Shown here: in pieces, positions 23,478-64,000 of the stretch
How positions within the stretch are numbered: the stretch's first letter is position 1
Layout of the letters: each line of letters opens with the position of its first letter
NCBI GenBank assembly: GCA_963665115.1
Contig: OY762007.1
Coordinates: 448,001-512,000, forward strand
Direction: 5' to 3'
Length of the DNA: 64,000 nucleotides
Origin: an uncultured Rivularia sp.
GTDB lineage: Bacteria; Cyanobacteriota; Cyanobacteriia; Cyanobacteriales; Nostocaceae
Made by a program: the position numbers and the translations under genes
The notes under the pieces: generated by a model
The model's input: the letters and a program-made list of their open reading frames with translations, nothing else
Database searches by the model: none
Told to the model about the DNA's origin: nothing

Positions 23478-26400
23478 TTACTTACTTCGACAAACCTTTA
23501 ATCTTTCCCGTACTTGGGGATTGCTATTTAAATAATCTTTTAACCAGTCGCATCCGCGTGTTAATAACCCGTCTAAATGATCAATCTGCCAAATTAACAC
23601 CTCATTTCCTTGAGGTTGATTACCTTGAACGTGCGCGAGTATGTATTTACCATCTGGGCTGAATTTGGCTTCAGTTATGAAGGTAGATAAATACTTATAT
23701 TCTGCAAGCTGCTTACCTGAAGTATCCCAAATTTGAAATTTCTTGTCCTTTGAAGCTGTGAGGATACGCTTACCATCCGGGCTAAATTTAGCATAGACAA
23801 TCGGACTTTGATGAGGTATTTCAACTAATTGTTTGCCATTCGTATCCCAAATAATTGCCGTATTGTTTGTGGAAGTCGCAATAATTCGTTTTCCATCTGG
23901 ACTAAAACTAGGGCTAAAAATATCTTGATTTGCTTTAATTTCTGATAACTTTTTACCTGATGTATTCCAAATGGTTGCTATTCTTCCATTACTTGCAACA
24001 ATACGTTCCCCATCTGGGCTAAAGTTAGCACCGAGATAACTATATTCACTTGCTGGAAACTCTACTATTTTTTCACCTGAAATATTCCACAAACTAGAAT
24101 AATTTTTGCCATCATAATCAAACTTAGCAATAATATATTTACTATTTGGACTCCAAGTCATACCTCTAGCTTTGAATGTAGAGATTAACTTTCCCGTATC
24201 CGACCAAATTCTTGATTTACCATCGTAAGTTGTAGTTAAAATATGCTTGCCATCTGGACTAAAAGCAGCATAATCTAATCCCTTTTCATGTCCGGAAAGT
24301 AACAGTAATTGTTTTCCAGATGTATTCCAAACACGAGCAGTTTTATCAACTGATGCTGTAACTATTTTTTTGCCATCTGGACTAAAATTAGCGCTACTAA
24401 CTATACCTGAATGTCCTTGAAATCTTGCTAACTGCTTACCAAACTTATCCCAAAGTAATACAGATTTCCAAGTTGGGGTAACTACATATTTACCATCCGG
24501 ACTCCAACTTGCTCCATTAATTTTATCTTTTGAATTAATGTTTGCTGTAACTACTGGTATTTCATCAGATAAATTCCAAATACGAACGTTTCTATCAAAT
24601 CCATAAGTAACAATATGTTTACCATCAGGACTCCAACGGGGACTTCTTTGATCTCCTGCTAATTCAGCGATTAAATCGGCAGATAAATCCCATGCTTTTG
24701 CAGCACCATCTCTTATATCCCATACTTTTATAGTGTCGTCGGTGGTAAAAAATTGCTTCCCATCAGGGCTAAATTCTGCATTACTATTTAATTCTTTTTG
24801 ATTTTTTATTTCTCTAATTAACCTACCAGATAAATCCCAAACATAAGTTTTCTCAGATGTGGTTACAAAGATACGCTGACTGTCGGGGCTAAAACCAGCA
24901 TCCGCATTCCCTGAACGATCATCTACTTTAAATCTTGCAATTTGTTTACCTGAAATATCCCAAACATAGGAATCATCAGAGTTAGTTAAAATATATTTTC
25001 CATTTGGACTCCAATAAGCGCTGCTAACAGCTTTTGTATGTCCTGAAAGCGCTTTTACTAATTTACCCGAAGTATCCCAAATACGGGCAGTTTTATCATT
25101 AGAAGCAGTCAGAATATATTTGCTATCCGGGCTAAAACTAGCGCTATTAACTGTATCTTTAAGTTGTAGTAATAAATTACCCGATAAATCCCAGATACGA
25201 ACTATTTTTTCATCAGAGCCACTAACCACACTTTTTCCATTTACAATTGTTTCAGTTTGTGGTTGTTGAGAAATAGTAATTATACGTTTCCCATCTGGAC
25301 TAAAACTGGCACTATTTACCCATTCTTGATGTTTTATTATCGCTACTTGTTTTCCAGAAAAGTCCCATATCCGAACGTTTTTACCATAAGAAGCAGTAAT
25401 AATATGTCTACCATCAGGACTAAATTCAGCCTTATAAACTCCATCTTTATGTCCTTTCAGTTCGGTTATCAGCTTACCCGACAAATTCCAAATTCTAGCG
25501 GTTTTATCTGTGGAACCAGTAATCAAAAACTTTCCATCATGGCTCCAATTCACAGTTGTAATATTGTCTTGATGGGTTGCAAATTGTTTTACCTCACGAA
25601 TATTGTTTGTTATTGTTTGCAAAGCTAAAAGCGGACTGGTTGCAGGATATTTTTCTAAGGAACGTCCATCTTGTACTAAATTTTTCAATCTTTGTCCAGC
25701 ATCCATTGCTGTTACTAAAGATTCAATTTGTTTGGTTTCAAACTGTTTTAAAGCTGTAACTCCTGCTCTTTCTAATTTTGTACCTTCTTGAGCTTCTTGT
25801 AATTGATGATTTGCTCCTATAAAAGCAATCGTAGCTCCAATCACAGAACAAATTAGAACGCCACCACCAATACGAATTTGTCGTTTAGCTTTATGTTGAG
25901 CTGTAGTTAAAGTATCATTTGCTTGTGCTAAAATGCGACTTTCTTCTTCTTGAATAGCTAATGCGGTAGTTATTTCTTGTTTTTCCAATTCCTGACTAGC
26001 ATTTAAAAACTGATAATCTTGTTTACTTAAACTTTTATCCGCAGCCCAAATATTAGCGTCTTCTAATGCTTTTCCTCGCAATAATCTAGAATCATCTTGA
26101 AAATTTGAAGTAACCCAAGCTGATAATGCTTCCGAATATGGTCTTAAATTCATAAGTTCTTTTTCTACCCAATTTAAATCAAATACTGTTGCATAAATAC
26201 GGTTGTAAACCTGTAAATACCCTTGATTTTCTACAACTAATCCTGATAGCCGTAATTCAATTTGTTCTGGACTATCATCAGCGGGTATTTGTCCTAATTG
26301 TAAAATTTTCTGATACAAACCAAGCAATGCACCTGTATTATGCTTGCTCCTTAAAATCCGATCTTTAATAGTTTTTAAATGCGGTGGTTCGTCAAAAGAT

Positions 26401-27233
26401 TCCCAATTGTCAATTATTTTCTGTCTGACAATATTTTCTACATCTTGATTTTTTAATCCTGGAAAACCTGCTAATAAATCGCATAATTTCTGTGTTAATA
26501 ATGGTTGCCCCCCAGTCCAATCCAAAACTTCTTTTAAAACAGCTTGGGGATTTTCAACTTCTTTAAATCCTGCTGCTAAAGGTGAAACTTCATCTATTTG
26601 AAAACCATTAACTTGAATAGCGCTACCAATATTAAAAGGTGTTCTAACTTTATCGGCTATTAAATCGCTTGGTGTTGCTACTCCGAGAAGCACAAAAGTA
26701 ATCCGATTAAATTCTTTGTTAAAATTACGCTTTTCATAACAGCTTCTAATCCAAGAGAAAAAGTCATCGCAGGGGAAATTTAAGCTTAAAATACTATCAA
26801 TTTCATCAATAAAGATAACTATTTTACTTTGAATTTTTTCTAATAATATTTCTTCAATAAATATATCCAAACGCTGTAAAGGTGATAATTCGCTGTTTTC
26901 CTTCCACGATGTTCTAATAAACTCGCTGGGGTTAGCTATACCAAAATTAGCAACCAACGTATAAACAATTCCTGCATACCACTGTTCTGGATTGATATCT
27001 TTACTACCCCTTCCAGAAATATCAATTGTTGTACAAGCGATTCCTTCAGCTTGCAATCGTTTGATGGTGCGAACCTGTAAACTGGTTTTACCCATTTGTC
27101 GGGAATTGAAAATATAGCAAAAGTTGCCTGCTTTGAGTTCGTTGTAAAGGTCAAAATCTGCTTTTCTAACTACATAACTGGGAGCATTTTCCGAAAGACT
27201 TCCACCAACTTTGTAAGAAAAATTGTTGTTCAT
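23478..27233 (-). CDS. AAA_35 (STAND-like) NTPase with TM helix and WD40 beta-propellers
   Basis: YKVGGSL, Walker A NSRQMGKT, Walker B IFIDEID, TPFNIG, WTGGQP; TM IGGGVLICSVIGATIAFIGA; about 14-16 diverged FSPDG/IWD WD40 repeats. Confidence 0.92.
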   Translation of the reverse strand: MNNNFSYKVGGSLSENAPSYVVRKADFDLYNELKAGNFCYIFNSRQMGKTSLQVRTIKRLQAEGIACTTIDISGRGSKDINPEQWYAGIVYTLVANFGIANPSEFIRTSWKENSELSPLQRLDIFIEEILLEKIQSKIVIFIDEIDSILSLNFPCDDFFSWIRSCYEKRNFNKEFNRITFVLLGVATPSDLIADKVRTPFNIGSAIQVNGFQIDEVSPLAAGFKEVENPQAVLKEVLDWTGGQPLLTQKLCDLLAGFPGLKNQDVENIVRQKIIDNWESFDEPPHLKTIKDRILRSKHNTGALLGLYQKILQLGQIPADDSPEQIELRLSGLVVENQGYLQVYNRIYATVFDLNWVEKELMNLRPYSEALSAWVTSNFQDDSRLLRGKALEDANIWAADKSLSKQDYQFLNASQELEKQEITTALAIQEEESRILAQANDTLTTAQHKAKRQIRIGGGVLICSVIGATIAFIGANHQLQEAQEGTKLERAGVTALKQFETKQIESLVTAMDAGQRLKNLVQDGRSLEKYPATSPLLALQTITNNIREVKQFATHQDNITTVNWSHDGKFLITGSTDKTARIWNLSGKLITELKGHKDGVYKAEFSPDGRHIITASYGKNVRIWDFSGKQVAIIKHQEWVNSASFSPDGKRIITISQQPQTETIVNGKSVVSGSDEKIVRIWDLSGNLLLQLKDTVNSASFSPDSKYILTASNDKTARIWDTSGKLVKALSGHTKAVSSAYWSPNGKYILTNSDDSYVWDISGKQIARFKVDDRSGNADAGFSPDSQRIFVTTSEKTYVWDLSGRLIREIKNQKELNSNAEFSPDGKQFFTTDDTIKVWDIRDGAAKAWDLSADLIAELAGDQRSPRWSPDGKHIVTYGFDRNVRIWNLSDEIPVVTANINSKDKINGASWSPDGKYVVTPTWKSVLLWDKFGKQLARFQGHSGIVSSANFSPDGKKIVTASVDKTARVWNTSGKQLLLLSGHEKGLDYAAFSPDGKHILTTTYDGKSRIWSDTGKLISTFKARGMTWSPNSKYIIAKFDYDGKNYSSLWNISGEKIVEFPASEYSYLGANFSPDGERIVASNGRIATIWNTSGKKLSEIKANQDIFSPSFSPDGKRIIATSTNNTAIIWDTNGKQLVEIPHQSPIVYAKFSPDGKRILTASKDKKFQIWDTSGKQLAEYKYLSTFITEAKFSPDGKYILAHVQGNQPQGNEVLIWQIDHLDGLLTRGCDWLKDYLNSNPQVRERLKVCRSK

Positions 27234-28191: not shown

Positions 28192-28254
28192 TATTATTTA
28201 ATCGATAGCTATTTTATTTACGATTAGGATTAGCGTTTGTAGGTTCCACTAAAA

Positions 28255-34403: not shown

Positions 34404-36672
34404 ATGAAAAAGTTGGCATTGCTGATTGGGGTAAGCGAATATGAGTACGACTTGAATCCCCTACCAGGTGCCCTTAAGGATGTTGATGCAATCCAACGTG
34501 TTTTACAACATCCAGATATGGGTGATTTTTCCCCAAATAATATCAAACTATTGAAAAATCCGCAGATACCAAATATGGGAATGGAAATTGAGAAAATTTT
34601 CTCTAATTGCCAGAAGCATGATTTGGTGTTGCTATATTTTTCCGGGCATGGGATTAAAGATGATAATGGCAATCTTTATTTAGCGAGCAGTCAAACTTGC
34701 AAGCATCCTAACGGGCAATTGATTACTTCAAGCACTGTCGCTGCAAGTTTTATACACAATATCATGGATAAAAGCCCTTCTCGGAGGCAAGTAATTATTC
34801 TTGATTGCTGCTTCAGCGGTGCTTTTGCTCGCGGTATGACGGTAAAAAATGATGGTGATGTAGATATTAAAAATCAATTGGGAGGGGAAGGAAGGGCAGT
34901 TTTAACTTCTTCTACTTCTACTCAATATTCTTTTGAGGAACAGGCATCCAATCACTCAATTTATACGCGCTACCTTGTCGAAGGAATTGAAAATGGTAAA
35001 GCCGATTTGGATGGTGATGGTGTAATTTCAGTTGATGAACTGCATGAATATACTCGCACTAGAATGCAAGAAGTTGCACCCAAAAGTAAACCTGAGATTT
35101 ATGCTTTCAAGGAAGGTTATAAGATTCAGTTGGCAAAAGTATGTCTAACTCAACAGCTAATTCCGATTGCTAAAAATCAAATAGGTTTCGGTGAATTAAA
35201 GTTGGGAAGAATGCTGCAAGAGGAAAGCGCTGAAGATGAATTGCAAGTTGATTATCTACCTAATTTTTTAGAACCGTTTGATTTTTTGATTAAAACTTTA
35301 ATTACCAAACTCACTGAAAACTTTTTTACTAACGATCGAGCAAATAATTTATCTATTGATTCTGAATTTGAAATTCAAATATTAGAAATTATCCGAGAAG
35401 CTTCTGAAGCCGATTTTGTATTTATACTCGAAAATGATAGTCAGGATAACTGTTTTGTTAAATCACAAAGTAATTTAGCAGAAAATATTGAGAAGAATGG
35501 CTATATTAATATACTAAACACAATAATTTTTCCAATTATCTCTCATGAATCAGTTTTTAATCCCTCGCATCACGGCACTTATAAAATTCATGAATATGCT
35601 AAAGGTTCTGCCAATGCTTTTGTGATGATACCGTTAAAAATGCCTCCGAATGCTGAAATTATGGTAATTTGCGGTGTGCCTCGAAATTCGCATTTATTAG
35701 GAAATGCCTACGGTAGGATTTTATCTAGTTTTTATCAAAGCAGTCAAACATTTTTACAACCTGCATTAGTAGAAGCCGCTATTATTGATTCTTTAAAAAA
35801 GGATTTTAAATTTGTATCTGAATCGTTATACGAAAGACGTTTTCAACTATTTTGCGAACGGTTGCAGAAAATGGTTGTTTATTTTGAACCCTTAATTTGC
35901 ATAGATGCCAATGAATTTTTTATCAGTGGTTGGGAAGCTTTAGCTAGAGATCCTGAAAGTTTAACTGCTCCCGTCGATCTATTTCAAGCCGCAGAATTAT
36001 GGGGTTCTCGATTCAAAGTTGAGTTAGACCAATATTTTCTGAAAGTTGCAGCAAAAAGCTATAAAGAAGCTAGGAAGTTAAAACAAAGAAGACTGAGTGA
36101 TGTTGTACCATTGTCAGTTAATGTATATCCGGAATCATTAGTTAGAACGGAATATTTTGAAACTGTTAGAGAAATTTTGGCAGAAGATATTATTTCACCA
36201 CGAAATTTGGTCTTAGAAATTTCTGAAAAATCAGAATTACCAGAGTTTGACGATAGTATTCGATTAGATAATCCTTTAGCTTTTTTCAAAAATAAACTTT
36301 TAGAATACGTACATCAATTTAATATTCGATTTGCTATCGATGATTTTGGAGTTGGTTATTCTTCAGTTTCTCGACTAGCTGGTTTGAACCCATGTCATGT
36401 TAAAATTGACCGCGAAATCCTGCATCATCAATCTAGCGATCTAATTATTCGTTTCGTTCATCAAATTGTTAAAGATAATAATTTATATCCACCGAATGTA
36501 ATAGTTGAGGGTGTAGATGAAGAAACTCCGATTAGTTTATATCAATTAAAAAAAATAGGTGTAACTTATATTCAAGGGCATATTGTTGGTAAACCAGAGT
36601 CAGAAGTTTATCGTCTCAGCCAGGAAAAATATATAGAAACTCAAGAAAATGATTTCAGGTGAGATTGTTTAA
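34404..36672 (+). CDS. Caspase-like (peptidase C14) - GAF-like - EAL fusion protein
   Basis: KLALLIGV, YFSGHG, ILDCCFSG (His/Cys dyad); EAL motifs WEALARD, SVNV, LEISE, AIDDFGVGYS, KIDR, VEGVD, IQG. ORF as given stops at 36662; removing one A at about 36638 would give IELKKMISGEIV* at 36672. Confidence 0.88.
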
Positions 36673-38168: not shown

Positions 38169-39600
38169 GTGAGTCAGTCATTTGATTACGATTTAGCGAT
38201 CGTCGGCGCTGGAGTAGGTGGACATGGCGCTGCCTTACACGCCGTTAGCTGTGGATTAAAAACTGCAATTATTGAAGCTGGTGATATGGGGGGAACCTGC
38301 GTTAACCGTGGTTGTATCCCCTCGAAGGCGTTACTTGCTGCTTCTGGAAGAGTGCGGGAGTTACGCGATGCTTACCATCTCAAGTCGATGGGTATTCAAA
38401 TTGATAACGTAAGATTTGAAAGAAATGATATAGCAAACCATGCGAATAATTTGGTGGCGAAGATTCAAGGAGATTTAACTAATTCTCTTAAACGTTTGGG
38501 TGTTGATATTATTCAAGGTTGGGGTAAAGTTGCCGGAAAACAAAAGGTAACTATTGATACTCCTGACGGTGAAAAAACTATTACAGCTAAAGATATTATT
38601 CTTTCTACTGGTTCGGTTCCTTTTGTCCCACCGGGGATTGAAGTTGATGGTAAAACGGTGTTTACCAGCGACCAAGCGGTAAAGTTGGAATGGTTGCCGC
38701 AATGGGTAGCAATTGTTGGTAGCGGCTACATCGGTTTGGAATTTTCCGATGTTTACTCGGCTTTGGGTTGCGAAATCACCATGATAGAAGCTTTACCCCA
38801 ATTAATGCCGGGATTTGACCGCGATATTGCTAAACTTGCCGAAAGAGTATTAATAAATCCTCGCGATATTGAAACTTATTCTGGAATATACGCTAAAAAA
38901 ATTACTCCTGGTTCACCAGTAATTATTGAATTAGCTGATTTTAAGACTAAAGAAGATGTAGACGTATTAGAAGTTGATGCTTGTTTGGTTGCTACCGGAA
39001 GAATTCCAGTCACGCAAAACATTGGCTTAGATTCGGTGAGTGTTGAATTAGATAGACGCAAGTTTATTCCGGTAAATGATTCGATGGCAGTACTCTCTCA
39101 AGGGGAAACCCGTACCGCATTTATGGGCGATTGGCGATGCTACTGGCAAAATGATGCTGGCTCATGCTGCTTCCGCTCAAGGTATTACCGCCGTGGAAAA
39201 CATCTGCGGTAGAACAAAGGAAATTGATTATGCAAGCATTCCCGCAGCAGCATTTACTCATCCAGAGATTAGCTATGTGGGAATGACGCAGGAACAAGCT
39301 AAAGAAAAAGCCCAAACCGAAGGCTTTGAAGTTGGAGTTAGTAAAAGTTATTTTAAAGGTAATTCCAAAGCTTTAGCAGAAGGAGAAGCCGACGGAATCG
39401 CCAAAGTTGTTTATCGCAAAGATACCGGAGAAGTGCTTGGAGTCCACATCTTCGGACTTCACGCAGCCGATATCATCCATGAAGCAAGTGCGGCGATCGC
39501 CAATCGTCAAAGCGTAAATTCACTAGCCCATCTAGTCCACGCCCATCCCACACTTTCCGAAGTCTTGGATGAAGCATATAAAAGAGCGGCAGTCAGTTAA
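38169..39600 (+). CDS. lpdA: Dihydrolipoamide dehydrogenase (apparent +1 frameshift at about 39107)
   Basis: [19 protein letters not shown] redox disulfide, [20 protein letters not shown]; the two ORFs join as [16 protein letters not shown] if one A is removed. Confidence 0.93.
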
Positions 39601-50635: not shown

Positions 50636-53600
50636 GTGACTTACAATACCTCTATCAAAACCATTTTAATTCTCGCCGCTAATCCCAAAACTACCTCCCG
50701 ATTGCGCTTGGATGAAGAAATACGAGAAATTGATGACGGGTTGAAGAATAGCGAACATTTTAGGTTGGTAACTAAATTGGCTGTGCGTCAGCGTGATTTT
50801 TACAGGGCAATTCTAGAATATCAGCCGCAAATTATTCACTTTTGCGGGCATGGTGAGGGAGATGATGGAATTGTTTTAGAAGATGATATTGGACAATCTG
50901 TGACTATGGGAAACTGAAGCCCTATCTCGATTGTTTAAATTATTTGCTGTCAAAGGAGTTGAATGTGTTGTTCTTAATGCTTGCTACTCGGAGGTGCAAA
51001 CCTTAGCTATTAGCCAATACATAAAATATGTGGTTGGCATGAATACAGCTATTGGGGATAAAGCTGCAATTAATTTTGCTGTCGCTTTTTACGATGCATT
51101 AGGAGCAGGGGAAGATGTGCAGTTTGCTTATGATTTGGGCTGTAGTCAACTTGTTGGATTAAATGAAGATAGTACTCCAGTTCTCAAAATTACGGAAATA
51201 CATCCTGCTGATATTCAATTTGTCGCTGGTGATATTCCTCCCAATCCATATTTAGGATTATCTGCTTTTGCAGAAAAAGATGCGGCTTTCTTTTTTGGCA
51301 GGGAGAAGTTTACGGATGAGTTATTTGATATGGTTCATCAGCAAAACTTAGTAGCAGTAATTGGTGCTAGCGGTAGTGGAAAATCTTCGGTGGTGTTTGC
51401 AGGTTTAATTCCCAAACTGCGAGAAGAAGGAACTTGGTTGATAGAATCATTTCGTCCCAAAAGTCAACCCTTTGATGAACTAGCTTTGGCTTTGGTAAGC
51501 CAATTAGAACCCAATATTGATGGTGTAGATAAAACTATTAAAGTTGGTAAATTAGCAGAAAGTTTAAACAAAGGGGAAGTCAAATTACATCAAGTTGCAT
51601 CACAAATTTTAGAAAATCAACCACAAAAACGCTTTCTATTAATCGTAGACCAATTTGAAGAACTTTATACTCAATCTCAAGATAAAGAACAGCAACAAAG
51701 CTTTATTGATACATTACTTTTAGCTGTTAATCAAAAAAGTATCACATTAGTTTTTACATTACGTGCTGACTTCTACGGTTATGTGCTTTCTTACCGTCCA
51801 TTTAGCGATGCATTAGGGCAAATTACTTTTAAACCGTTGGGGTTAATGAATCGCGATGAATTACTTACAGCTATTGAACAACCTGCCCAAAAGTTAGGGG
51901 TAAAATTACAAACCCATTTGGCAGAAAGAATACTTGATGATGTTGGTCAAGAGCCAGGAAATTTACCATTATTAGAATTTGCTTTAACTCAATTATGGGA
52001 CAAGCAAAAGAATAATCAATTAACTCACCAAGCTTACGATGAAATTGGTGGTGTCAAACAAGCTTTAGTTAAACATACAGAAGAAGTTTATCACAAATTA
52101 AGTGAAGCACAAAAGCAGCAAGCACAGCGTATTTTTCTTTCTTTAGTAAGGTTGGGAGAAACAACAGAAGATACCCGACGTGTAGCGACTCGTGAAGAAA
52201 TTGGCAAGCAAAATTCGGATTTAGTCAGGTATTTAGCAGGTTCACAAACCCGGTTATTAGTGACAGGAAGGAAAGATAAATCGGGAGAAGAAACAGTAGA
52301 AGTTGTTCATGAAGCGCTGATACGAGAGTGGGGAACTTTGCGTAAATGGGTAGATGAAAATCGGGAGAAATTGATACAGAAGCGTAAGATTGAAGCGGCA
52401 GCAATTGAGTGGCGAGATAAAAATAAATTAAAAGGTTATTTGTTGACAGGGAGACAATTAAAAGATGCTCAAGCATTTCAGAAACAGCAGAATATTAATT
52501 TAGGATTATCAGATTTGGCTAGTGAATTTATTAAAACAAGCAACAAGCAACAGCGAGTTAGGTTGCTTCAAACATCTAGTATTTTAATAATTCCGATTTT
52601 AATTGCGGCAGGAATTATAGTTCCATATCAACGACAGCAAAGTTATAACCAAGCCTGGGAAATTATCAGAAGTCGTAAACAAGGAACTCGTGCAGCACTA
52701 GAGTTACTCACTGAAGGCTGTTGGGCAAAAGATATTCCTATTTTCAGTTTGTTTTTTGGTGAATGTCATAACTTTGTTGGTACTGACCTCAGTCGTGCCA
52801 ACTTCAATAATGCCAACCTCAATAATGCCTACCTCTGGAGTGCCAACCTCAGTCGTGCCGAACTCTGGGGTGCCAACCTAGAACGTGCCAACCTTAATAA
52901 TGCCAACCTAGAAGGTGCCAACTTCAATGATGCCAACCTCAAAAATTCCTACCTCAGTAATGCCAACCTAGAAGGTGCCAACCTCAAAAATGCCAACCTC
53001 AAAAATGCCTACCTCTGGGATACCGAACTCAATAATGCCGAACTTAATAACGCCAACCTAGAAGGTGCCGAACTCAATAATGCCAAACTCAGTAATGCCA
53101 ACCTAGAAGGTGCCAACCTCAAAAATACCTACCTCAGTGGTGCCGAACTCTGGGGTGCCAATCTAGAACGTGCCAAGCTCTGGGATGCCAATCTACAACG
53201 TGCCAACCTACAACGTGCCAACCTCAAAAATGCCAACCTCAAAAATGCCAACCTCAAAAATGCCAACCTCAAAAATGCCAACCTCAAAAATGCCTACCTC
53301 AGTAATGCCAACCTCATTGATGCCGATCTCAGTCATGCCAACCTCATTGATGCCTACCTCAGTCATGCCAACCTCATTCGTGCCGACCTCAGAAATGCCA
53401 ATCTCATTAATGCCGACCTCATTGATACCGATTTCATTGATGCCGATCTCAGTGATGCTGACCTCAGTGATGCTGACCTCTTTATTGCTAACCTCACTGG
53501 TGCCTACCTTGTTGGAGCCAATCTCGCTAGTGCTAACCTCATTGGTGCCAACCTCAGTGGTGCAATATTCTGGGATAAAACTTCGGGTGAAGCCAAAAAC

Positions 53601-53696
53601 ATAACCCCAGAACAAATCAAAGAAGCCAAAAACTGGGAGAAAGGAATATATAGCCCAGAATTTCGCAAAAAATTAGGTTTACCACCAGAGAAATAA
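50636..53696 (+). CDS. CHAT protease - nSTAND1-type NTPase - TM - pentapeptide repeat protein (apparent frameshift at about 50910)
   Basis: ILILAANP, IHFCGHG, VLNACYS (CHAT His/Cys); NPYLGL, FFGRE, GASGSGKSS, IVDQFEE, LPLLEFAL, HEAL; TM ILIIPILIAAGIIV; about 50 A(N/D)L pentapeptides. Confidence 0.88.
52790..53565 (+). repeat. Pentapeptide-repeat coding array with 15-bp periodicity
   Basis: GCCAACCTC core every 15 bp; exact (AAAAATGCCAACCTC)x4 at 53226-53285. Confidence 0.92.
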
Positions 53697-55279: not shown

Positions 55280-55492
55280 GATTTGTGGTTGTAGTTTTGT
55301 TTTTTAAGTATAGGTAGGGAAGTTATACAATTTACTTTTATATTACGGATTATAAAACCGCAGAGAGCGCAGAGAGCGCTGAGGGAAGATAGTAAGAGAG
55401 AAATGGTTTGTTTTAAAGTGGGAATATTAAAAAATGAATTAAACAAAAGGTAAGAACAAGCTTTAGAATATGGTTAATGGAGGATAAAAATA

Positions 55493-56122
55493 ATGGTAAG
55501 TCTAAAAGAACTCATAGAAGAGCCAGAAGACAGTTTCGCTGACGATCCAGAGGAGCGGTTAACTGTTAGTGGTGTAAGTTGGGAGAGTTTTGAAAGACTG
55601 TTAAACAAGTTAGAAGATAATTCGCATTACCGTGTCACTTACCTAGATGAAATATTAGAAATAGTGTCCCCCTCACAAAAACATGAAACGGTTAAATCTC
55701 GTATAGGTTTTCTTTTAGAGTTTTATTTCTGTGCGAAAGGAATAAAACACATCTCAATGGGAAGCACTACCGTCAAAAATCGCTTAAAAAAAGCTGGAGC
55801 AGAACCGGATGAATGTTACTGCATAAGCGAGAAGAAGGATATACCAGATTTAGCTATAGAAGTAACTATTACCAGTGGTAGTATCAAGAAATTAGAAACT
55901 TATCGTCGTTTGGGAGTGAAGGAGGTTTGGTTGTGGAAGAACAACCAACTTAACTTATACTATCTGCGTGAAGAAACTCCGAAAGATTTTGCTGATACCT
56001 ACGGATACGAAAAAATACAATCCTCGATTATTGTCCCCGAACTAAATATTGACTTTTATACTGAATGCATTTTAATCCCAGATCAAGTAGAAGCATGGAC
56101 TCGTTTTCAACAAGGAATATAG
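55493..56122 (+). CDS. Uma2 family (PD-(D/E)xK) endonuclease
   Basis: VSWESF, SPSQKHE, EPDECY, PDLAIEV, YRRLGVKEVW. Confidence 0.9.
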   Translation: MVSLKELIEEPEDSFADDPEERLTVSGVSWESFERLLNKLEDNSHYRVTYLDEILEIVSPSQKHETVKSRIGFLLEFYFCAKGIKHISMGSTTVKNRLKKAGAEPDECYCISEKKDIPDLAIEVTITSGSIKKLETYRRLGVKEVWLWKNNQLNLYYLREETPKDFADTYGYEKIQSSIIVPELNIDFYTECILIPDQVEAWTRFQQGI

Positions 56123-56493
56123 TGACGTAAAATTTTACTTGTCTACAACCAGTCTTCACAATCGCCTAAGAATTTATTCTCAGGCTAATAAACAAAGTTG
56201 TCTAAAGACGACTGGAAAATACTTTTAGTTGACATTAGTTGTGGCTGTATATTTGCTGTATGTATAAATTTTTATAAATAGTTGATTTTTTAGTTCTATT
56301 TTAAATATTTATAACTTTATCAAAGTGATTCATTGACTTCGATGTTATTCTTTCTATCAATTTGTTAGTTTTATTTATTTGAAGAGCATTTCAGTTAAAA
56401 AAGTTTACAAATCGCTCTTATGAAATTACTTAATCTCAAGCTGTAATTTAGATAATGCGTATTTATCATTAATTATTTATCTACCCATATAGC

Positions 56494-58557
56494 ATGAATC
56501 AGTATTCTTTAATTGGAAAAAAACTGCGCGATCGCTACCAAATTCTCGAAAAGATAGGAGAGGGGGGATTTGGAGATACTTATCGAGCGATTGATTTCGA
56601 TTTACCAGGGGAGCCGGTATGTGTCGCTAAACATTTTAAGCCCAAGAATCCCCATCCTGCGGTATTAGAAATTGCGAAGGATAAGTTTAACCAAGAGGCA
56701 CAAACTTTATATCGGTTGGGTAATGCTAACAAGCAAATCCCCAGTTTATTTGCTCATTTTGAAGAAAATGGGCAATTTTATTTGGTTCAGGAATTTGTTG
56801 ATGGGTATGACTTAACGAAAGAAGTTCTTTCAGGTAATCCCAAAAAAGAGCAAGAGGTATTGCAACTTTTAAAGGAAATTTTGGAGGTGTTGGCGTTTGT
56901 ACATCAGCAAAACGTTATCCACCGGGATATTAAACCGCAGAATATTATGCGCCGCAAAGATGGCAAGATAGTCTTGATTGATTTTGGGGCTGTTAAGGAA
57001 ATTGCTGGTTTAGGTGTCAATCCCCAAGAAATTTCTCAAACTGTTGCAATCGGAACTCCCGGTTATATGCCTCGCGAACAACAATCTGGTTATCCCAATT
57101 TCAGCAGCGATATCTATGCAGTAGGAATTATTGGTTTTCAGGCTTTAACTGGTTTATATAGAAATCCGCTAGAGCTACCGCAAGATTATCATACCAAAGA
57201 GTTGTATTGTGCTTTGTTCCCATGCGAGGTTAGCCCAGCTTTTGCGGAGATATTAGACAAAATGGTGCGTTATGACAATCTTCAGCGTTACAAAAATGCT
57301 GCTGTTGCCCTAGAAGCCGTAAATAATTTACTAAATTTAGAACAGACAACAACGGTAGTTGTACCGTCACCAAACTTAAACACAACTGTACAGGAAAATC
57401 GAAATTATATAAGAAGCAATACTTCCATTCAAACAGAACCTTCTTTGTTTCAGAAAATTATCGGATTTTTCCGGGATTTATTGAGCGATGAACCGGAATT
57501 TCCACCAACTGTTGTCTCCAATCCTACTGTTAATAGTAATAGTTATGAGCAACCGGAAGGACAAGTAAGCCTTGATTCTGCTTTTTATATCGCACGCCCA
57601 CCGATTGAAAATGACTGTTATGAAACGATTTTACAACCGGGGGCGTTGATTCGCATCAAAGCACCGCGTCAAATGGGGAAAACTTCTCTGTTGTCGCGGA
57701 CTTTGGATTATGCCAAAAAGCAAGGTTGCCAAGCTGCATATTTAAATTTGCAATCCGCTGATGCAGAGTTTCTCGATAGCTTAGATAAATTCTTGCAGTG
57801 GTTTTGCGGTAGCATTGCCCAAGAGCTTACCTTGAAGGATAAATTAGCCGAACATTGGCAGGGTGTGCTGGGTAGTAAAAATAAGTGTACGAATTACTTT
57901 CAAAGATATTTGCTATCAGAAATTAAAAGCCCGGTGGTTTTGGGCTTGGATGAAGTAGACCAAATTTTTCAGCATCCGCAAGTAGCAGCAGAATTTTTCG
58001 GTTTGTTGCGAGCTTGGCACGAAAAGTCCAAGAATCAAGCAACTTGGCAAAAATTAAGATTGGCGATCGCCCATTCCAAGGAAGTTTACATCCCCTTAAA
58101 TATCAATCAGTCGCCGTTTAATGTCGGCTTACCTATTGAGTTACCGGAGTTTAACCAGTCGCAGGTTAAGGATTTAGTACAAAGATATCATTTGGATTGG
58201 GGAGAGGAAGAAATTAAGCAACTGATGGCAATGGTAGGTGGACATCCTTATTTAGTGCGGAAGTCGTTGTATGAAATTGCCCGCGACAGAATTAGCTTGT
58301 CACAGTTTTTACAGATTGCGCCCACGGAACAAGGAATGTTTAGCGACCATTTGCGCCGTCATTTGTCGAATTTAAGGGAGGATGACGGGTTAGTATCAGC
58401 GATGAAATAAGTAATTACCGAAAACAATCCCGTAAGGTTAGATACGAATTCGGGCTTTAAATTACGCAGTATGGGCTTGGTGAGGTTTCAAGGAAATGAT
58501 GTCATACCTTTGTGCGATTTGTATCGTTTGTATTTCCAGGAGCATTTAAAAGGCTGA
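56494..58557 (+). pseudogene. Ser/Thr kinase fused to an AAA_35 NTPase, with premature TAA at 58408
   Basis: GEGGFG, HRDIKPQN, DFG; KAPRQMGKT, LGLDEVD, SPFNVG, GGHP; the frame continues past TAA as VITENNPVRLDTNSGFKLRSMGLVRFQGNDVIPLCDLYRLYFQEHLKG*. Confidence 0.88.
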
Positions 58558-58568
58558 TGAGTGGAATT

Positions 58569-58595
58569 GTAGAGACGTAGCATTGCTACGTCTCT
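58569..58595. repeat. GTAG-type REP palindrome (second copy at 10-34)
   Basis: GTAGAGACGTAGCATTGCTACGTCTCT versus GTAGAGACGTAGCACTGCTACGTCT. Confidence 0.8.
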
Positions 58596-58692
58596 CCGGA
58601 TTTAGGCCATAAACGAACCAATCAAAAATCCGAAATCCCGCGAAGACAATTAGTAGTTAAAATCCCACATAACAATCTCTAAAAAAGATGCC

Positions 58693-61600
58693 ATGAGTCA
58701 AACAAGTTTACCTTCATACCAATATCAAGTAGGGGGAAGTCTACCAACTAACGCTCTTACCTATGTGAAAAGAAAGGCTGATGATGAATTATATCAAGCT
58801 TTGAAAAATGGTGAGTTCTGCTATGTGTTGAACTCCCGACAAATGGGAAAATCAAGTTTGCGGGTGCAAACTATGCAACGTTTGCAGGATGAAGGTTTTG
58901 CCTGTGTGGCGATTGATATTACAAATATTGGTACGGCGGATATTACTTTAGAACAATGGTATGCGGGAATAATTGATAGTGTTATTAATAGTTTGGAGCT
59001 TTACGATAACTTTGATTTAAATGATTGGTGGATGCAGCAAGGTTTGCTGTCTCCGGTGAATAAGTTAAGTAAGTTTTTTGAATCGGTTTTATTAAAATTA
59101 ATTTCACAGAAGATTGTAATTTTTATCGATGAAATTGATAGTGTTTTAAGTTTAAATTTCCCCGTTGATGATTTTTTCGCTTTGATTCGGGAATGTTATA
59201 ACAGTCGCGCTTCTCAACCAGATTATCAACGGTTGACTTTTGCTTTGTTGGGGGTGACGACTCCCAGCGATTTAATTCAAGATAAGCGCCGCACCCCGTT
59301 TAATATTGGTAGAGCGATTGAATTGACTGGTTTTGAGTTGGCAGAAGCGGAACCATTAGCGCAAGGTTTAGCGAAGAAAACTAGTCAGGCGATCGCCGTG
59401 ATGGATGCGGTATTGTATTGGACTGGGGGACAACCTTTTCTCACCCAAAAGCTGTGTAAGTTGATTTTGAATCATCATGGTGTGATTCCGGAGGATGGAA
59501 TTAACGAATGGGTAGGGCATTTGGTGCAATCTGGGGTAATTGATAACTGGGAAGCACAAGATGAACCGGAGCATTTAAGGACGATTCGGGACAGGATTTT
59601 ACGGGGTGGTGGACAATTGACGGTAAGGTTATTGGCGATATATAAAGAAGTACTTGAAGGGGAAAACCTCTCTCCTACAAGCACAGAGGCTTTAGATGTT
59701 CCCCCTTCCCTTGCAGGGAAGGGGGTTAGGGGGTTAGGTCAGAGTGTGCGAACTGCCGATACACCCGAACAAGTGTATTTACGGTTGTCGGGATTGGTGG
59801 TAGAGCAGCAGGGGAATCTCAGAGTTTATAACCACATTTATGAATCGATTTTTAATTTAAATTGGGTCGATCAAGAATTAAAAAACCTCCGTCCCGATTT
59901 TTATGCTACAGCTTTCGAGGCTTGGGTTGAGTCCGATTATGAAGATAATTCGCATTTATTGCGGGGACAACAACTTGGTGATGCTTTAGCATGGGCGGAA
60001 GGAAGAAGTTTAAGCAATCAAGATTATCGGTTTATTACAGCCAGTCAAAAATGGGAATTTGAGCAAGCACAGCAAGCAACAACACAGGCACTCAAAGAAG
60101 CGGAGGAAGCACGGGAAGCGACGAAGTTAGAAAGATTGGGAAATTTAGCCTTGCGGCAGTTTGAATACAACCCAACACCACAGGTAGTAGCAACAGCTAT
60201 GGAAGCCGGAACAAGGCTAAAAGCACTAGTAAAAGATGGACGACCTTTAGAAAAATACCCCACCACTAGTCCTGTGTTGGCTTTAAATACTGTTCTTGAT
60301 ATCCCCAAACGTAAAACGCTCAGAGGGCATGAGGGTGGAGTTATCCATGCCGACTTTAGCCCCAGCGGACAGCGGATTGTGACTTTCTTAGCATTTGTGT
60401 TAGGTAAAACTAAAGATGATACCGCTTTTAGCTCTAACAGACAGCGGATTGTCACTGCATCTGCGGACGGAACAGCAAAAGTGTGGGACATCAATGGTCA
60501 ACTGCTGCAAACACTCAAGGGGCATCAAGGTTCTGTCAGATATGCCGCCTTTAGCCCCGACGGCAAGCGGATTGTCACTGCATCTGCGGACGGAACAGCA
60601 AAAGTGTGGGACATCAATGGTCAACTGCTGCAAACACTAAAGGGGCATCAGAGTTCGGTCGGAAATGCTGCCTTTAGCCCCGACGGCAAGCGGATTGTGA
60701 CCGCATCTAGGGACAAAACAGCGAAAGTGTGGAACATTAACGGTCAACTGCTGCAAACATTCAAGGGGCATCAGAGTTCGGTCAAACATACCGCCTTTAA
60801 TTGGGTTCATGCCGCCTTTAGCCCTGACGGACAGCGGATTGTCACTGCATCTATGGACGGAACAGCGAAGGTGTGGAACATCAACGGTAAACTATTGCAA
60901 ACCCTCAAGGGACATCAGGATTTTGTCTCCCATGCTGTTTTTAGTCCCGATGGACAACGGATTATCACTTCATCTGCGGACGGAACAGCGAAGGTGTGGA
61001 ACATCAACGGTAAACTATTGCAAACCCTCAAGGGGGGGCATCAGAGTTGGGTTTATGCCGCCTTTAGCCCCGACGGCAAACGTATTATCACTGCATCCAG
61101 TGATAAAACAGCAAAGGTGTGGGACATCAATGGTCAACTGCTGCAAACCCTCAGTGGGCATCAACGTTCTGTCCACGATGCGGCTTTTAGCCCCGACGGA
61201 CATAGGATTGTGACTGCATCTGCGGACGGAACAGCAAAAGTGTGGGACATTAATGGTCAACTATTGCAAACACTCAGTGGACATCAAGATGAAGTCAAAT
61301 ATGCCGCCTTTAGTCCCGATGGCAAGCAGATTGTGACTGCATCTACGGACGGAACAGCAAAAGTGTGGGAAATCAACAGTGAACTGCTGCCAACCCTTAA
61401 TGGGCATCAGAGTTGGGTCAATCATGCCGCCTTTAGCTCCGACGGCAAGCGGATTGTTACTGCATCAAGTGATAATACAGCAAAGGTGTGGGACATCAAC
61501 GGTCAACTGTTACAAACCCTCAACGGGCATCAGTCTGGGATCAGATATGCCGCCTTTAGCCCCGATGGACAGCGGATTCTCACTGCATCAGATGATAAAA

Positions 61601-62523
61601 CAGCAAAGGTGTGGGACATCAACGGTCAACTGTTGCAAACCCTCAACGGGCATCAGAGTTGGGTTTGGGATGCCGCCTTTAGCCCCGACGGACATAGGAT
61701 TGTGACTGCATCTACGGACGGAACAGCAAAAGTATGGGACATCAACGGTCAATTGCTGCAAACACTCAAGGGGCTTCAAGGTTCTGTCAGATATGCCGCC
61801 TTTAGCCCCGACGGACAGCGGATTATTACTGTTATATTCAACGAGTACATTATTAGCGAAGGAAGTATCACGATTTTCAAGATTGACCATAATACAGCGC
61901 AAGTATGGGATATCAATGGTCAACTGCTGCAAACCCTCAACGGGCATGAAGTTGAAGTCTACCATGCCGCTTTTAACCCCGACAGCAAGCGGATTGTCAC
62001 TGCATCTAAGGACGGAACAGCAAAAGTGTGGGACATTAACGGTCAACTGTTGCAAACCCTCAAAGGGCATCAGTATGATGTCAGATATGCCGCCTTTAGT
62101 CCCGATGGACAGCGGATTCTCACTGCATCAGATGATAAAACAGCAAAGGTGTGGGACATTAACGGTCAATTACTACAAACACTCTATGGGCATCAGAATT
62201 CGGTTGGATATGCCGCCTTTAGCCCCGATGGCAAGCGGATTGTAACTACATCAAGTGATAATACAGCAAAGGTGTGGGACATCAACGGTCAACTGCTGCA
62301 AACCCTTAAGGGACATCAGAGTTCTGTCTGCCATGCGGCTTTTAGCCCCGACGGCAAGCGGATTGTCACTGCATCAATTGATAATACAGCGAAAGTCTGG
62401 CAGTTGGAAAGTTTAGATAAATTGCTGGCGCGAGGGTGCGATTTGTTGGAGGATTATTTCGTTGATAATCCGGAGGCTAGGGAGAGAACGGGATGCGCTC
62501 AGAAGTTAGGAGTTGGGAGTTAG
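58693..62523 (+). CDS. AAA_35 NTPase with highly internally conserved WD40 repeats (no TM)
   Basis: YQVGGSL, NSRQMGKS, IFIDEID, TPFNIG, WTGGQP; about 16 near-identical 41-aa repeats GHQ..V..AAFSPDG.RIVTAS.D.TAKVWDINGQLLQTL. Confidence 0.93.
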   Translation: MSQTSLPSYQYQVGGSLPTNALTYVKRKADDELYQALKNGEFCYVLNSRQMGKSSLRVQTMQRLQDEGFACVAIDITNIGTADITLEQWYAGIIDSVINSLELYDNFDLNDWWMQQGLLSPVNKLSKFFESVLLKLISQKIVIFIDEIDSVLSLNFPVDDFFALIRECYNSRASQPDYQRLTFALLGVTTPSDLIQDKRRTPFNIGRAIELTGFELAEAEPLAQGLAKKTSQAIAVMDAVLYWTGGQPFLTQKLCKLILNHHGVIPEDGINEWVGHLVQSGVIDNWEAQDEPEHLRTIRDRILRGGGQLTVRLLAIYKEVLEGENLSPTSTEALDVPPSLAGKGVRGLGQSVRTADTPEQVYLRLSGLVVEQQGNLRVYNHIYESIFNLNWVDQELKNLRPDFYATAFEAWVESDYEDNSHLLRGQQLGDALAWAEGRSLSNQDYRFITASQKWEFEQAQQATTQALKEAEEAREATKLERLGNLALRQFEYNPTPQVVATAMEAGTRLKALVKDGRPLEKYPTTSPVLALNTVLDIPKRKTLRGHEGGVIHADFSPSGQRIVTFLAFVLGKTKDDTAFSSNRQRIVTASADGTAKVWDINGQLLQTLKGHQGSVRYAAFSPDGKRIVTASADGTAKVWDINGQLLQTLKGHQSSVGNAAFSPDGKRIVTASRDKTAKVWNINGQLLQTFKGHQSSVKHTAFNWVHAAFSPDGQRIVTASMDGTAKVWNINGKLLQTLKGHQDFVSHAVFSPDGQRIITSSADGTAKVWNINGKLLQTLKGGHQSWVYAAFSPDGKRIITASSDKTAKVWDINGQLLQTLSGHQRSVHDAAFSPDGHRIVTASADGTAKVWDINGQLLQTLSGHQDEVKYAAFSPDGKQIVTASTDGTAKVWEINSELLPTLNGHQSWVNHAAFSSDGKRIVTASSDNTAKVWDINGQLLQTLNGHQSGIRYAAFSPDGQRILTASDDKTAKVWDINGQLLQTLNGHQSWVWDAAFSPDGHRIVTASTDGTAKVWDINGQLLQTLKGLQGSVRYAAFSPDGQRIITVIFNEYIISEGSITIFKIDHNTAQVWDINGQLLQTLNGHEVEVYHAAFNPDSKRIVTASKDGTAKVWDINGQLLQTLKGHQYDVRYAAFSPDGQRILTASDDKTAKVWDINGQLLQTLYGHQNSVGYAAFSPDGKRIVTTSSDNTAKVWDINGQLLQTLKGHQSSVCHAAFSPDGKRIVTASIDNTAKVWQLESLDKLLARGCDLLEDYFVDNPEARERTGCAQKLGVGS

Positions 62524-62584
62524 GAAATTAAAATAAATAATTGCTAGAGTAAAGCTACTTTTATTAAGTAAGAACGGATAACTA

Positions 62585-62842
62585 ATTAATATCTAACTCA
62601 AACCCGAACATCAGCAATTTATCCAAGCACAAATGGCTAGCGGTAGATTTACTAATGCAGATGATGTTATCGATGAAGCATTTAAGTTGCTAGAAGAAAG
62701 AGAAAGAAGGTTAGAGGAATTACGTCAGAAAATTGCTGTTGGAACCCGAGAGATTGAACAAGGACGAGTTACGGATGGTGAGGTAGTTTTTGCACGGTTG
62801 CAAGAAAAAATACGGAAGATTGCCGAGGAATCGGAAGGATGA
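62585..62842 (+). pseudogene. ParD-family antitoxin with damaged 5' end
   Basis: ASGRFTNADDVIDEAFKLLE...LRQKIAVG; the upstream frame reads ATT AAT ATC TAA CTC AAA CCC GAA CAT (I-N-I-*-LKPEH), i.e. a lost start and a stop codon. Confidence 0.75.
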
Positions 62843-63112
62843 GCAATTCAAGATTTAGATGATATATGTGAATATATCGCTCGTCGTAATTCTAAAGCTG
62901 CTAGCAAGCTTTTTGATGATATACGTAAAAAGTGTAAGTTAATCGCTGATTTTCCGAGCATGGGGAAAAGTTATGAAAGACTAGTACCAACTTTACGCGG
63001 ATTTATTGTAGATGATTATATTGTATTTTATTATCCGAAAGAAGATGGAATTAATGTGACTCGTGTATTAAGCGGTTTTAGAGATTTGGAATCATTATTT
63101 TCTGATGAGTGA
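62839..63112 (+). pseudogene. ParE/RelE-family toxin with 5' frameshifting deletion (absent from the ORF track)
   Basis: ATG AGC AAT overlaps the ParD stop; out-of-frame body IQDLDDICEYIARRNSKAASKLF...FPSMGK...YIVFYYP...RVLSGFRDLESLF. Confidence 0.8.
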
Positions 63113-63801: not shown

Positions 63802-64000
63802 TTAATTGCTGACAAACCAATTTTCAATTTGCAATTCGCTAAAATTAGCAAAATCTGATACATTATTGGTCACAAGAATCAAGTCATTAACTTTGGCAAT
63901 CGCAGCAATTTGACTATCTGCAAATGATGGTGTTTTACCAATTTTCATTAAACGCGCTCTTTCCGTAGCGTGCCATTTTGCAGCCTTAGCATCATAGCTA
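63802..64000 (-). CDS. VapC/PIN-domain toxin, 3' part (runs off the window)
   Basis: Translates to ...ERARLMKIGKTPSFADSQIAAIAKVNDLILVTNNVSDFANFSELQIENWFVSN*. Confidence 0.85.
   Translation of the reverse strand, partial: SYDAKAAKWHATERARLMKIGKTPSFADSQIAAIAKVNDLILVTNNVSDFANFSELQIENWFVSN

What the first reader, a model, noticed from the sequence alone, without database searches (positions are those of the whole stretch)
56494..62523. Second AAA_35 pair with a different output (Ser/Thr kinase) and a cytoplasmic sensor
Seen: the same two AAA_35 subtypes are adjacent again, but the APRQMGK partner carries a Hanks kinase instead of an HTH, and the NSRQMGK-WD40 partner lacks the TM helix while keeping the LVKDGRPLEKYPTTSP linker shared with the first copy. 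Inference: a modular effector-NTPase plus sensor-NTPase chassis with interchangeable outputs and sensing compartments, reminiscent of paired sensor/helper NLRs; possibly immune or stress signalling.
Basis: partly seen in the sequence, partly recalled or inferred. Interest (0 to 1): 0.72.

Follow-up and report, generated by a model that had tools for sequence, protein, structure and literature searches.

The report
Damaged paired-NTPase receptor kinase
Two neighbouring cyanobacterial genes encode related ATP-switch proteins, one fused to a protein kinase and one to a fast-varying propeller sensor, which are predicted to bind each other and likely relay an outside signal to the kinase; in this genome the kinase gene has a premature stop and the sensor has lost the membrane anchor that its closest relatives keep.

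Summary
The architecture is real. 56494-58557 is Ser/Thr kinase + subtype-A AAA_35 NTPase, broken by a TAA; 58693-62523 is subtype-B AAA_35 + 14 WD40 repeats, no membrane helix. The 'cytoplasmic sensor' is derived: an in-frame loss of 197 codons (membrane helix + coiled-coil stalk) that a 91%-identical relative and all 4 sister loci keep; 90-93%-identical kinase genes are full length. So this copy is a damaged member of an intact, widespread kinase-A / B-TM-stalk-WD40 pair. Membrane-less B forms also exist elsewhere (37 of 145). The chassis idea holds: 8 of 10 A genes in this genome have a B partner within 5 kb, A and B trees agree (rho 0.73; within-genome shuffles 0 of 5000), outputs and sensors are swapped freely, and an intact sister pair is predicted to bind (0.73, best control 0.00). 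It is the Pfam AAA_35 family, probably Npun2340/2341 of the MNS STANDs; I found no experimental study. Immune function is untested: hypervariable propeller sites and a variable genomic slot favour it, ordinary signalling domains in the family do not. The scan already reported this pair on at least five other genomes.

The parts
56494..58410 (+). Ser/Thr kinase (aa 15-267) fused to subtype-A AAA_35 STAND NTPase (aa 354-638, Walker A variant APRQMGKT, Walker B LGLDEVD), ended early by TAA
   Evidence: full-length 687-688 aa relatives at 90-93% identity
58408..58410 (+). Nonsense codon TAA; Gln (CAA/CAG) in 4 of 4 sister loci; falls in helix 282-293 of the modelled core and removes the last helix-wing-helix of the winged-helix domain
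58411..58557 (+). Orphaned last 48 codons of the A NTPase, in frame
   Evidence: AAA_35 profile 288-331, E 4.9e-12
58564..58600 (.). Short high-copy intergenic palindromic repeat between the two genes
   Evidence: 557 short BLAST hits in the genome
58693..62523 (+). Subtype-B AAA_35 STAND NTPase (NSRQMGKS, IFIDEID) + helical domain + linker + double WD40 propeller; no membrane helix
   Evidence: fold of the sister core closest to SSO1545 and PAB2304
59664..59746 (.). Dispersed hairpin repeat inserted in frame in a loop of the B winged-helix region (26 extra residues)
   Evidence: 30 hits in the genome, 24 of at least 60 bases; alignment; skipped in a biofilm contig
60064..60070 (+). Junction of the in-frame deletion of 591 bases (197 codons: membrane helix + coiled-coil stalk), with a 7-base overlap
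   Evidence: table 8 (run X4, record 21); 197-residue gap against P0003 and L076
60322..62415 (+). Highly repetitive WD40 region; variation concentrated at six positions per repeat
55493..56122 (+). Uma2 putative endonuclease gene, in the same 7.2-kb accessory segment (about 55414-62585)
   Evidence: segment missing between the same flanks in G003, G013, G019
62633..63112 (+). parD-parE toxin-antitoxin pair on the right flank of the segment
29531..30805 (+). First pair, A partner: Cro-type HTH + subtype-A AAA_35, intact
23478..27233 (-). First pair, B partner: subtype-B AAA_35 + membrane helix + WD40, intact, divergent from its A partner

Best explanation
This is a damaged copy of a two-gene receptor kinase in which two paralogous STAND NTPases are predicted to form a heteromeric switch that likely couples a WD40 sensor to a Ser/Thr kinase. 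In the intact relatives, subunit B has its NTPase before a single membrane helix, then a coiled-coil stalk of about 150-200 residues and a double propeller (shown by sequence); the NTPase is likely cytoplasmic and the propeller outside the inner membrane (inferred from the positive-inside rule). Ligand binding to the variable face of the propeller would change the nucleotide state of B; B would assemble head to tail with subunit A, whose conserved Arg helix is predicted to touch B's P-loop and Walker B; assembly would cluster the kinases and switch them on by trans-phosphorylation (inferred from STAND and Hanks-kinase biology). The ligand is probably a foreign or damaged macromolecule at the envelope (inferred, about 55%). 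In this genome A has lost its last 49 residues to a nonsense codon and B has lost membrane helix and stalk (both shown), so the copy is likely inactive or decaying.
For: Damage: 90-93% identical kinase-A proteins are 687-688 aa and 116 of the 120 best hits reach the end of the A profile; P0003 (91% identical B) and L076 have 197 more residues at the junction; a biofilm contig has 591 more bases there; 4 of 4 other members of the starred 5-row clade (SH-aLRT 99) are kinase-A followed by a B with a membrane helix. Partnership: 8 of 10 A genes paired in this genome, 21 of 30 in five genomes of the genus (my count by coordinates); patristic distances of A and B correlate (rho 0.71, 91 pairs; 0.73, 62 thinned pairs; 0 of 1000 shuffles), and real pairing beats shuffling partners within genomes (0.83 against 0.16 +/- 0.14, 0 of 5000). 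Complex of the intact G015 sister cores: score 0.73, best of 3 controls 0.00; that mark was reached by 116 of 157 solved complexes and 2 of 215 mismatched pairs; runs agree in at least 89% of contacts, partner pLDDT at least 85; the interface list holds A R157 (invariant) and B R42-Q43, D139-E140. B Walker B is DEID in 88 of 91, A is DEVD in only 64 of 91. Topology: more K/R before than after the helix in 85 of 106. Sensor variation: pN/pS 1.14, 1.18 and 2.72 at six sites against 0.19-0.26 elsewhere in three sister proteins. Accessory: absent from the same slot in G003, G013, G019; found whole by DNA in 1 of 24 genomes of the genus; 5 of 20 AAA_35 genes damaged in this genome against 4 of 70 kinase domains (p 0.02).
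Against: No experiment on any member was found. Congruent trees follow from linkage alone and do not show physical co-evolution; within this genome alone the correlation is weak (rho 0.37, reached by 144 of 720 permutations). The complex was folded for a sister pair, not this copy, with my own alignments, and ring-forming relatives (ORC/Cdc6, CED-4, NRC resistosomes) are solved, so the pass may reflect likeness. 9 of 30 A genes in five genomes have no B nearby. The two C-terminal cysteines are kept in membrane-less forms too (21 of 24 with a visible tail), so they say nothing on location. Many sensors and outputs in the family are ordinary signalling domains (CHASE2, GAF, periplasmic binding protein, HisKA, 7TM-HD, GGDEF, PAS/receiver), and no PADLOC or NCBIfam defence model matches the NTPases. 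Most predicted interface residues of A lie before the stop, so the shortened protein might still bind.
Confidence: 0.68

Rival explanations
1. The membrane-less B is a working, re-addressed cytoplasmic sensor (an Apaf-1/HET-E-like intracellular receptor), and only the nonsense codon in A is recent damage, perhaps fixed in culture.
For: The deletion is in frame and clean; 37 of 145 B-WD40 proteins lack a membrane helix (a few of them multi-NTPase proteins); P0023 shows a separate 183-residue loss against its 91%-identical relative P0024, and a full-length kinase-A (P0130) has the same longest-contig length as P0023 (60,141), so they may be an intact kinase + membrane-less pair; B keeps both Walker motifs and its repeat framework shows pN/pS 0.16.
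Against: All 4 sister loci and the nearest B relatives (P0003, P0011, P0012, P0025) keep helix and stalk; the low-complexity stalk and 7-base overlap make a chance deletion easy; the partner is broken; P0130 and P0023 were not shown to be neighbours; purifying selection on the repeats may predate the deletion.
Confidence: 0.2
2. The pair is a general envelope or environmental signalling device, a cyanobacterial alternative to two-component systems, with no role in defence.
For: HTH-like heads on 77 of 132 A proteins and sensors such as CHASE2, GAF, periplasmic binding protein and 7TM-HD; several pairs are kept across the genus; a reference list names HatA/HatR of Synechocystis as WD40 proteins tied to carbon uptake (title only; that HatA is a B subunit is recalled and untested).
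Against: TIR in 61 of 132 A heads, CHAT and trypsin heads; hypervariable repeats of the kind linked to non-self recognition in fungi (passage in 10.1101/2020.01.06.895854); patchy presence, plasmid carriage (38 and 45 plasmid records) and a slot beside toxin-antitoxin genes.
Confidence: 0.4
3. A and B are only co-inherited tandem paralogues that work as separate homo-oligomers.
For: Linkage explains tree congruence; unpaired A and B genes exist; some proteins carry two or three B cores in one chain and no A (11 of 120 hits).
Against: A almost never has a C-terminal sensor and B almost never an N-terminal output; the link survives tandem, divergent and convergent layouts (58, 28 and 2 of 91 pairs); predicted A-B complex 0.73 against 0.00.
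Confidence: 0.12
4. The stop codon and the deletion are assembly errors.
For: Other AAA_35 genes in this assembly are frameshifted; the contig over the stop was not shown when runs were laid.
Against: One run holds a share of 1.00 of 213 sampled words across the stretch with the stop, and a contig of run X2 matches 58564-60300, junction included, with no difference; these runs may be the source of the assembly, so they exclude a consensus error, not a culture mutation.
Confidence: 0.05

Closest known systems
Pfam AAA_35 (PF14516); probably the Npun2340/2341 family of the MNS clade of STAND NTPases (Leipe et al. 2004, seen only as a name in section 7 of PMC8195603)
   Same: Both subunits pass the AAA_35 cut-off, are homologous to each other (HHalign 99.9%, 22% identity), and the B model's top structural matches are the archaeal ATPases SSO1545 (2FNA) and PAB2304 (2QEN).
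   Different: The sources I could read give the name only, in STAND-FGS systems; none describes a heteromeric A-B switch, a kinase output, a stalked membrane sensor or its loss.
Paired sensor/helper NLRs of plants and animals (RRS1/RPS4, RGA4/RGA5, NAIP/NLRC4; recalled)
   Same: Two linked, co-inherited STAND proteins with divided labour; predicted hetero-assembly; head-to-head or tandem layout.
   Different: NTPases are AAA_35, not NB-ARC or NACHT; the output subunit has no repeat domain; the sensor is usually across a membrane (106 of 145); outputs include HTH, cyclase and GGDEF; no immune role shown.
Fungal NWD receptors HET-E/HET-D and bacterial NLR-like proteins with highly conserved internal repeats
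   Same: STAND NTPase + WD40 repeats about 80% identical in DNA with variation at a few positions (passages).
   Different: Those are single-chain cytoplasmic NACHT proteins with their own effector; here the effector is on a second NTPase and the propeller is on a membrane-anchored stalk in intact copies.
Avs / bNACHT antiviral STANDs and anti-phage kinases (Stk2, PD-T4-6)
   Same: STAND switch with exchangeable effectors; the kinase domain matches PADLOC PD-T4-6 profiles (best 308 bits).
   Different: The PADLOC match covers only the kinase, as any cyanobacterial Hanks kinase might; no defence model matches either NTPase; AAA_35, PF14516 and Npun do not occur in the 7 supplementary files of the 2026 STAND survey (PMC13581612).

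Membership tests
Pfam AAA_35 / MNS-clade STAND | Match above the Pfam AAA_35 gathering score | tested here: met
   A 430.9 bits, B 107.1 bits, cut-off 27
Pfam AAA_35 / MNS-clade STAND | P-loop domain followed by a GxP helical domain and a winged helix, closest to archaeal MNS ATPases | tested here: met
   Models of sister cores, pLDDT 93; GGHP/GGQP motifs; top Foldseek hits 2FNA and 2QEN. The winged helix of A is cut in this copy.
Npun2340/2341 family | Orthology to the two Nostoc punctiforme proteins that name the family | not tested
   The 2004 paper and the named proteins were not available; the assignment rests on the name in PMC8195603 and on recall
NLR (NACHT or NB-ARC receptor) | [quoted passage not shown] | tested here: not met
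   Pfam gives AAA_35 (and a weak AAA_22) only
NLR (NACHT or NB-ARC receptor) | Effector, NTPase and repeat sensor in one chain | tested here: not met
   Effector on A, sensor on B; no A-B fusion in the 139 stretches examined
Paired sensor/helper NLR (as a way of working) | Two linked STAND genes that are inherited as partners | tested here: met
Paired sensor/helper NLR (as a way of working) | Physical hetero-complex | tested here: inconclusive
   Predicted for the G015 sister pair, 0.73 against best control 0.00; a prediction, not a measurement
Paired sensor/helper NLR (as a way of working) | Pathogen-triggered activation leading to immunity or cell death | not testable with these tools
   Needs phage challenge or activation assays
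Highly repetitive (HIC) WD40 sensors | High internal repeat identity with a few hypervariable positions | tested here: met
   11 regular repeats, mean DNA identity 0.79; six sites pN 0.59 against 0.07 elsewhere; same sites variable in three sister proteins
Hanks-type Ser/Thr kinase | Gly loop, catalytic Lys, HRD and DFG motifs | tested here: met
   Pkinase 115 bits; motifs read; HRD-type motif in 115 of 120 relatives

The most novel reading that the evidence does not exclude
Cyanobacteria have a receptor-kinase class built from a heteromeric STAND switch: a hypervariable double propeller held on a roughly 25-30 nm coiled-coil stalk beyond the inner membrane detects invaders at the envelope and fires a Ser/Thr kinase through an A-B ATPase ring, and single in-frame deletions of the membrane helix and stalk repeatedly turn this surface receptor into a cytoplasmic NLR-like sensor. 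This locus would be one such switch of compartment caught in the act.
Probability: 0.25. Interest if true: 0.8.

Novelty: new variant of a known kind. Interest (0 to 1): 0.5.

Why it matters
STAND proteins are known as homo-oligomeric, cytoplasmic switches. A large cyanobacterial family (about ten pairs in this genome, at least 7,991 database proteins for subunit B) that splits sensor and output over two paralogous NTPases, predicted to bind each other and often working across a membrane, would be a separate bacterial route to sensor/helper pairing and to receptor kinases, with a simple bench test. This particular copy matters less as a working system, since both genes are damaged, but it shows how the sensing compartment can change in one step, and it points to intact sister loci in named, cultured strains (L076, L060, L069) as the right material.

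Tried and rejected
Expression: no RNA holder listed. Reads over the stop: the first laying showed no source contig over 56300-58563 and cut the table of differences before that place, so the letter at the stop in the biofilm strains stays unknown. Promoter and terminator scan of 56100-58750: at chance level (8 against 6.9; 3 against 2.6). Sequence search of solved structures: nothing for B, only a P-loop match to RecA fusions for A. C-terminal cysteine pair as a marker of location: uninformative. The linker as a sign that the two window pairs are recent duplicates: rejected; it is family-wide and the two A proteins fall in separate clades. PADLOC kinase hits as evidence of defence: rejected as generic. 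A-B single-chain fusions: none in 139 stretches; no search of longer proteins was run. Papers: 7 searches (Npun2340; AAA_35 with cyanobacteria/WD40/STAND; repetitive WD40; slr0143/HatA; STAND heterodimer terms; cyanobacteria NLR WD40 phage periplasm; AAA_35 alone) found no study of the pair; Leipe 2004 was not seen and the Hat paper is not held. The six 'hot' repeat positions were picked by eye on this protein, so its own ratio (2.2) is circular; only the three sister values are a fair test.
Full report
What is there. The window is part of an 8.69-Mb single-contig genome whose nearest named relatives for these genes are filamentous cyanobacteria. ORF 56494-58410 has a Hanks kinase (aa 15-267) and an AAA_35 NTPase that stops at profile position 286 of 331; the 48 codons behind the TAA match positions 288-331. 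ORF 58693-62523 has the second AAA_35 subtype and 14 Pfam WD40 stretches, with no hydrophobic helix. I call the APRQMGK subtype A and the NSRQMGK subtype B; they are homologous at 22% identity. The earlier pair in the window is HTH-A (29531-30805) and B-TM-WD40 (23478-27233), divergent and separated by three TPR-like ORFs, so it is linked but not adjacent.

Both genes are damaged. The three closest kinase-A proteins (90-93% identical) are 687-688 aa, and 116 of the 120 best hits, all kinase + AAA_35, reach the end of the A profile. Four sister loci have Gln at the stop. On a model of the sister core the stop falls in helix 282-293 and removes the following helix, beta-wing and last helix. For B, P0003 (91% identical) has 197 more residues between the helical domain and the linker: a basic patch, a hydrophobic helix (KD 2.3) and an Ala/Gln/Lys-rich coiled-coil-like stalk. 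L076 has the same 197, other relatives 155-190, and a biofilm contig has 591 more bases at 60064-60070 with a 7-base overlap. In the A tree (54 rows, quick IQ-TREE) this kinase-A sits in a 5-row clade (SH-aLRT 99) whose other four members all lie upstream of a B with a membrane helix. The defects are unlikely to be consensus errors: one run holds a share of 1.00 of the sampled words across the stop and a contig of another matches the junction exactly; both may be the source of the assembly.

Membrane-less sensors exist all the same. Of 145 B proteins with WD40 ends, 106 have a helix, 37 do not and 2 are unclear (a few of the 37 are multi-NTPase proteins). P0023 lacks 183 residues against its 91%-identical relative P0024 at another junction, an independent loss, and may sit beside an intact kinase-A (same longest-contig length as P0130; adjacency not shown).

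The pairing is real. This genome has 10 A and 10 B genes; 8 A genes have their own B within 5 kb. In five genomes of the genus 21 of 30 A matches have a B within 6 kb (subtypes told apart by bit score). From 139 stretches (L011-L107, L138-L177 and two of the window; L001-L010 and L108-L137 left out as short or duplicate) I took 135 A and 102 B cores and 91 pairs: 58 tandem A then B, 28 divergent, 3 B then A, 2 convergent. The stretches were found with A queries, so the sample leans to A relatives of this window, and two pairs (L016, L018) are probably mis-assigned by my nearest-gene rule and were kept. Tree distances of A and B correlate (Spearman 0.71; 0.73 after thinning to 62; 0 of 1000 shuffles), and real pairing beats shuffling partners within the same genome (27 pairs, 6 genomes: 0.83 against 0.16 +/- 0.14, 0 of 5000). 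Genome by genome: 14 of 720, 2 of 720 and 2 of 24 permutations reach the observed value in three relatives, but 144 of 720 in this genome. Linkage alone can give such congruence. On plasmids A occurs in 38 and B in 45 records; of the 23 records in both displayed lists, 17 have them within 5 kb.

The chassis is modular. Among 132 A heads: TIR in 61, HTH-like domains in 77, CHAT in 17, kinase in 11 (one more by eye), cyclase in 6, trypsin in 1 (heads can hold two domains; two of my three HTH-like labels had no Pfam hit and are by eye). B tails include WD40, CHASE2, GAF, TPR, HEAT, HisKA, trypsin, periplasmic binding protein, 7TM-HD, COP23 and NACHT. Kinase and CHAT heads interleave on the tree (5 changes of kinase state among 54 rows; no shuffle control).

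Mechanism. The B core folds like the archaeal ATPases SSO1545 and PAB2304, then RuvB, ORC/Cdc6, CED-4 and NRC proteins. The intact G015 sister cores were folded together: score 0.73, best of three controls 0.00; the mark was reached by 116 of 157 solved complexes and 2 of 215 mismatched pairs; runs agree in at least 89% of contacts, partner pLDDT at least 85. This supports binding and does not show it; my own alignments were used, and solved AAA+/STAND rings may have lent the geometry. The listed interface joins the helix of A that carries invariant R157 to B's GGSLP start, P-loop (R42, Q43) and Walker B (D139, E140), which suggests that A completes B's nucleotide site in trans (inference; no direct contact was printed). 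It fits the stricter Walker B of B (DEID 88 of 91) than of A (DEVD 64 of 91). Four of the listed A residues lie behind the stop. More Lys/Arg lie before than after the helix in 85 of 106 B proteins, which puts the NTPase inside and the propeller outside; 197 helical residues would be some 25-30 nm (arithmetic). Kinase activation by clustering is inferred from general knowledge of Hanks kinases and STANDs.

Purpose. The 11 regular repeats are 79% identical in DNA with variation at six positions; at those positions pN/pS is 1.14, 1.18 and 2.72 in three sister proteins against 0.19-0.26 elsewhere, which is relaxed or diversifying selection. Passages in PMC5587647 and 10.1101/2020.01.06.895854 describe such repeats and link them, in fungi, to non-self recognition. 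The 7.2-kb segment (Uma2, A, B) is missing between the same flanks in G003, G013 and G019; in G007 and G015 the flanks were not found together. It abuts parD-parE, and only 1 of 24 genomes of the genus matched the whole kinase-A gene by DNA. In G015 the pair lies directly upstream of what reads as a VMAP-MoxR-vWA-FGS conflict system (my reading of the ORFs, no profile search). AAA_35 genes are damaged more often than kinase domains in this genome (5 of 20 against 4 of 70, p 0.02). All this leans to threat sensing for this clade. Against it, the family carries many ordinary signalling domains, and no defence profile matches the NTPases.

Known and new. PMC8195603 (section 7 read) names the Npun2340/2341 family of MNS STANDs only in passing; PMC7159879 has no mention (passages); the 2026 STAND survey names MNS in a figure legend and its seven supplements lack AAA_35, PF14516 and Npun (passages and supplement search); PMC11119718 lists AAA_35 as an accessory domain of sigma factors (passage). 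Seven paper searches found no study of the pair. The scan itself reported the same A-B system on at least five other genomes, one with a kinase-TIR head. What this locus adds is a kinase-only clade with a long stalk and a repetitive propeller, tests of co-inheritance and predicted binding, and a dated-by-relatives loss of the membrane anchor. Verdict: real, a damaged member of an uncharacterised but widespread paired-STAND system; interest 0.5.

Noticed in passing
window 59664-59746: A dispersed genomic hairpin repeat sits in frame inside the B NTPase gene; P0003 and L076 carry related inserts in the same loop and P0011 another, so the loop seems to collect such repeats.
   Followed up: partly
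P0002, P0004, P0006-P0010, P0013, P0015-P0017, P0021, P0026, P0027: Proteins with two or three whole B-type NTPase cores in one chain, and others (P0005, P0014, P0018-P0020, P0022) with one core followed by up to five repeats of its C-terminal part; may bear on ring stoichiometry.
   Followed up: no
L011:23-5443 (G015 C16): Three genes that read as an EAD1-VMAP / MoxR / vWA-FGS ternary conflict system directly downstream of the sister kinase-A / B pair.
   Followed up: no
window 50636-53696: nSTAND1 NTPase + pentapeptide repeats (Pfam), with a short upstream ORF that may be its frameshifted head; a third STAND 3 kb from the finding.
   Followed up: partly
window 27310-29272 (-): Three TPR-like ORFs between the first A and B genes; two start with the same signal-peptide-like 18 residues and two share a C-terminal region, suggesting a local duplication.
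   Followed up: no
window 34404-36662 (+): Caspase-like peptidase C14 fused to an EAL domain.
   Followed up: no
window 21991-23277 (+): Non-specific endonuclease + lamin-tail domain gene convergent on the first B gene.
   Followed up: no
window 62633-63112 and 63802-64000: parD-parE pair and the end of a PIN-like gene with an upstream partner beyond the window: a slot with variable content across the genus.
   Followed up: partly
window 32965-33411 (-) and 38169-39600 (+): ORFs that look frameshifted (a nuclease-like gene ending abruptly; a dehydrogenase-like gene in two overlapping frames), read by eye; may be assembly indels.
   Followed up: no
plasmid records NZ_CP128401.1 and NZ_CP128402.1: A-type NTPases also occur in Candidatus Chlorohelix, outside cyanobacteria.
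   Followed up: no
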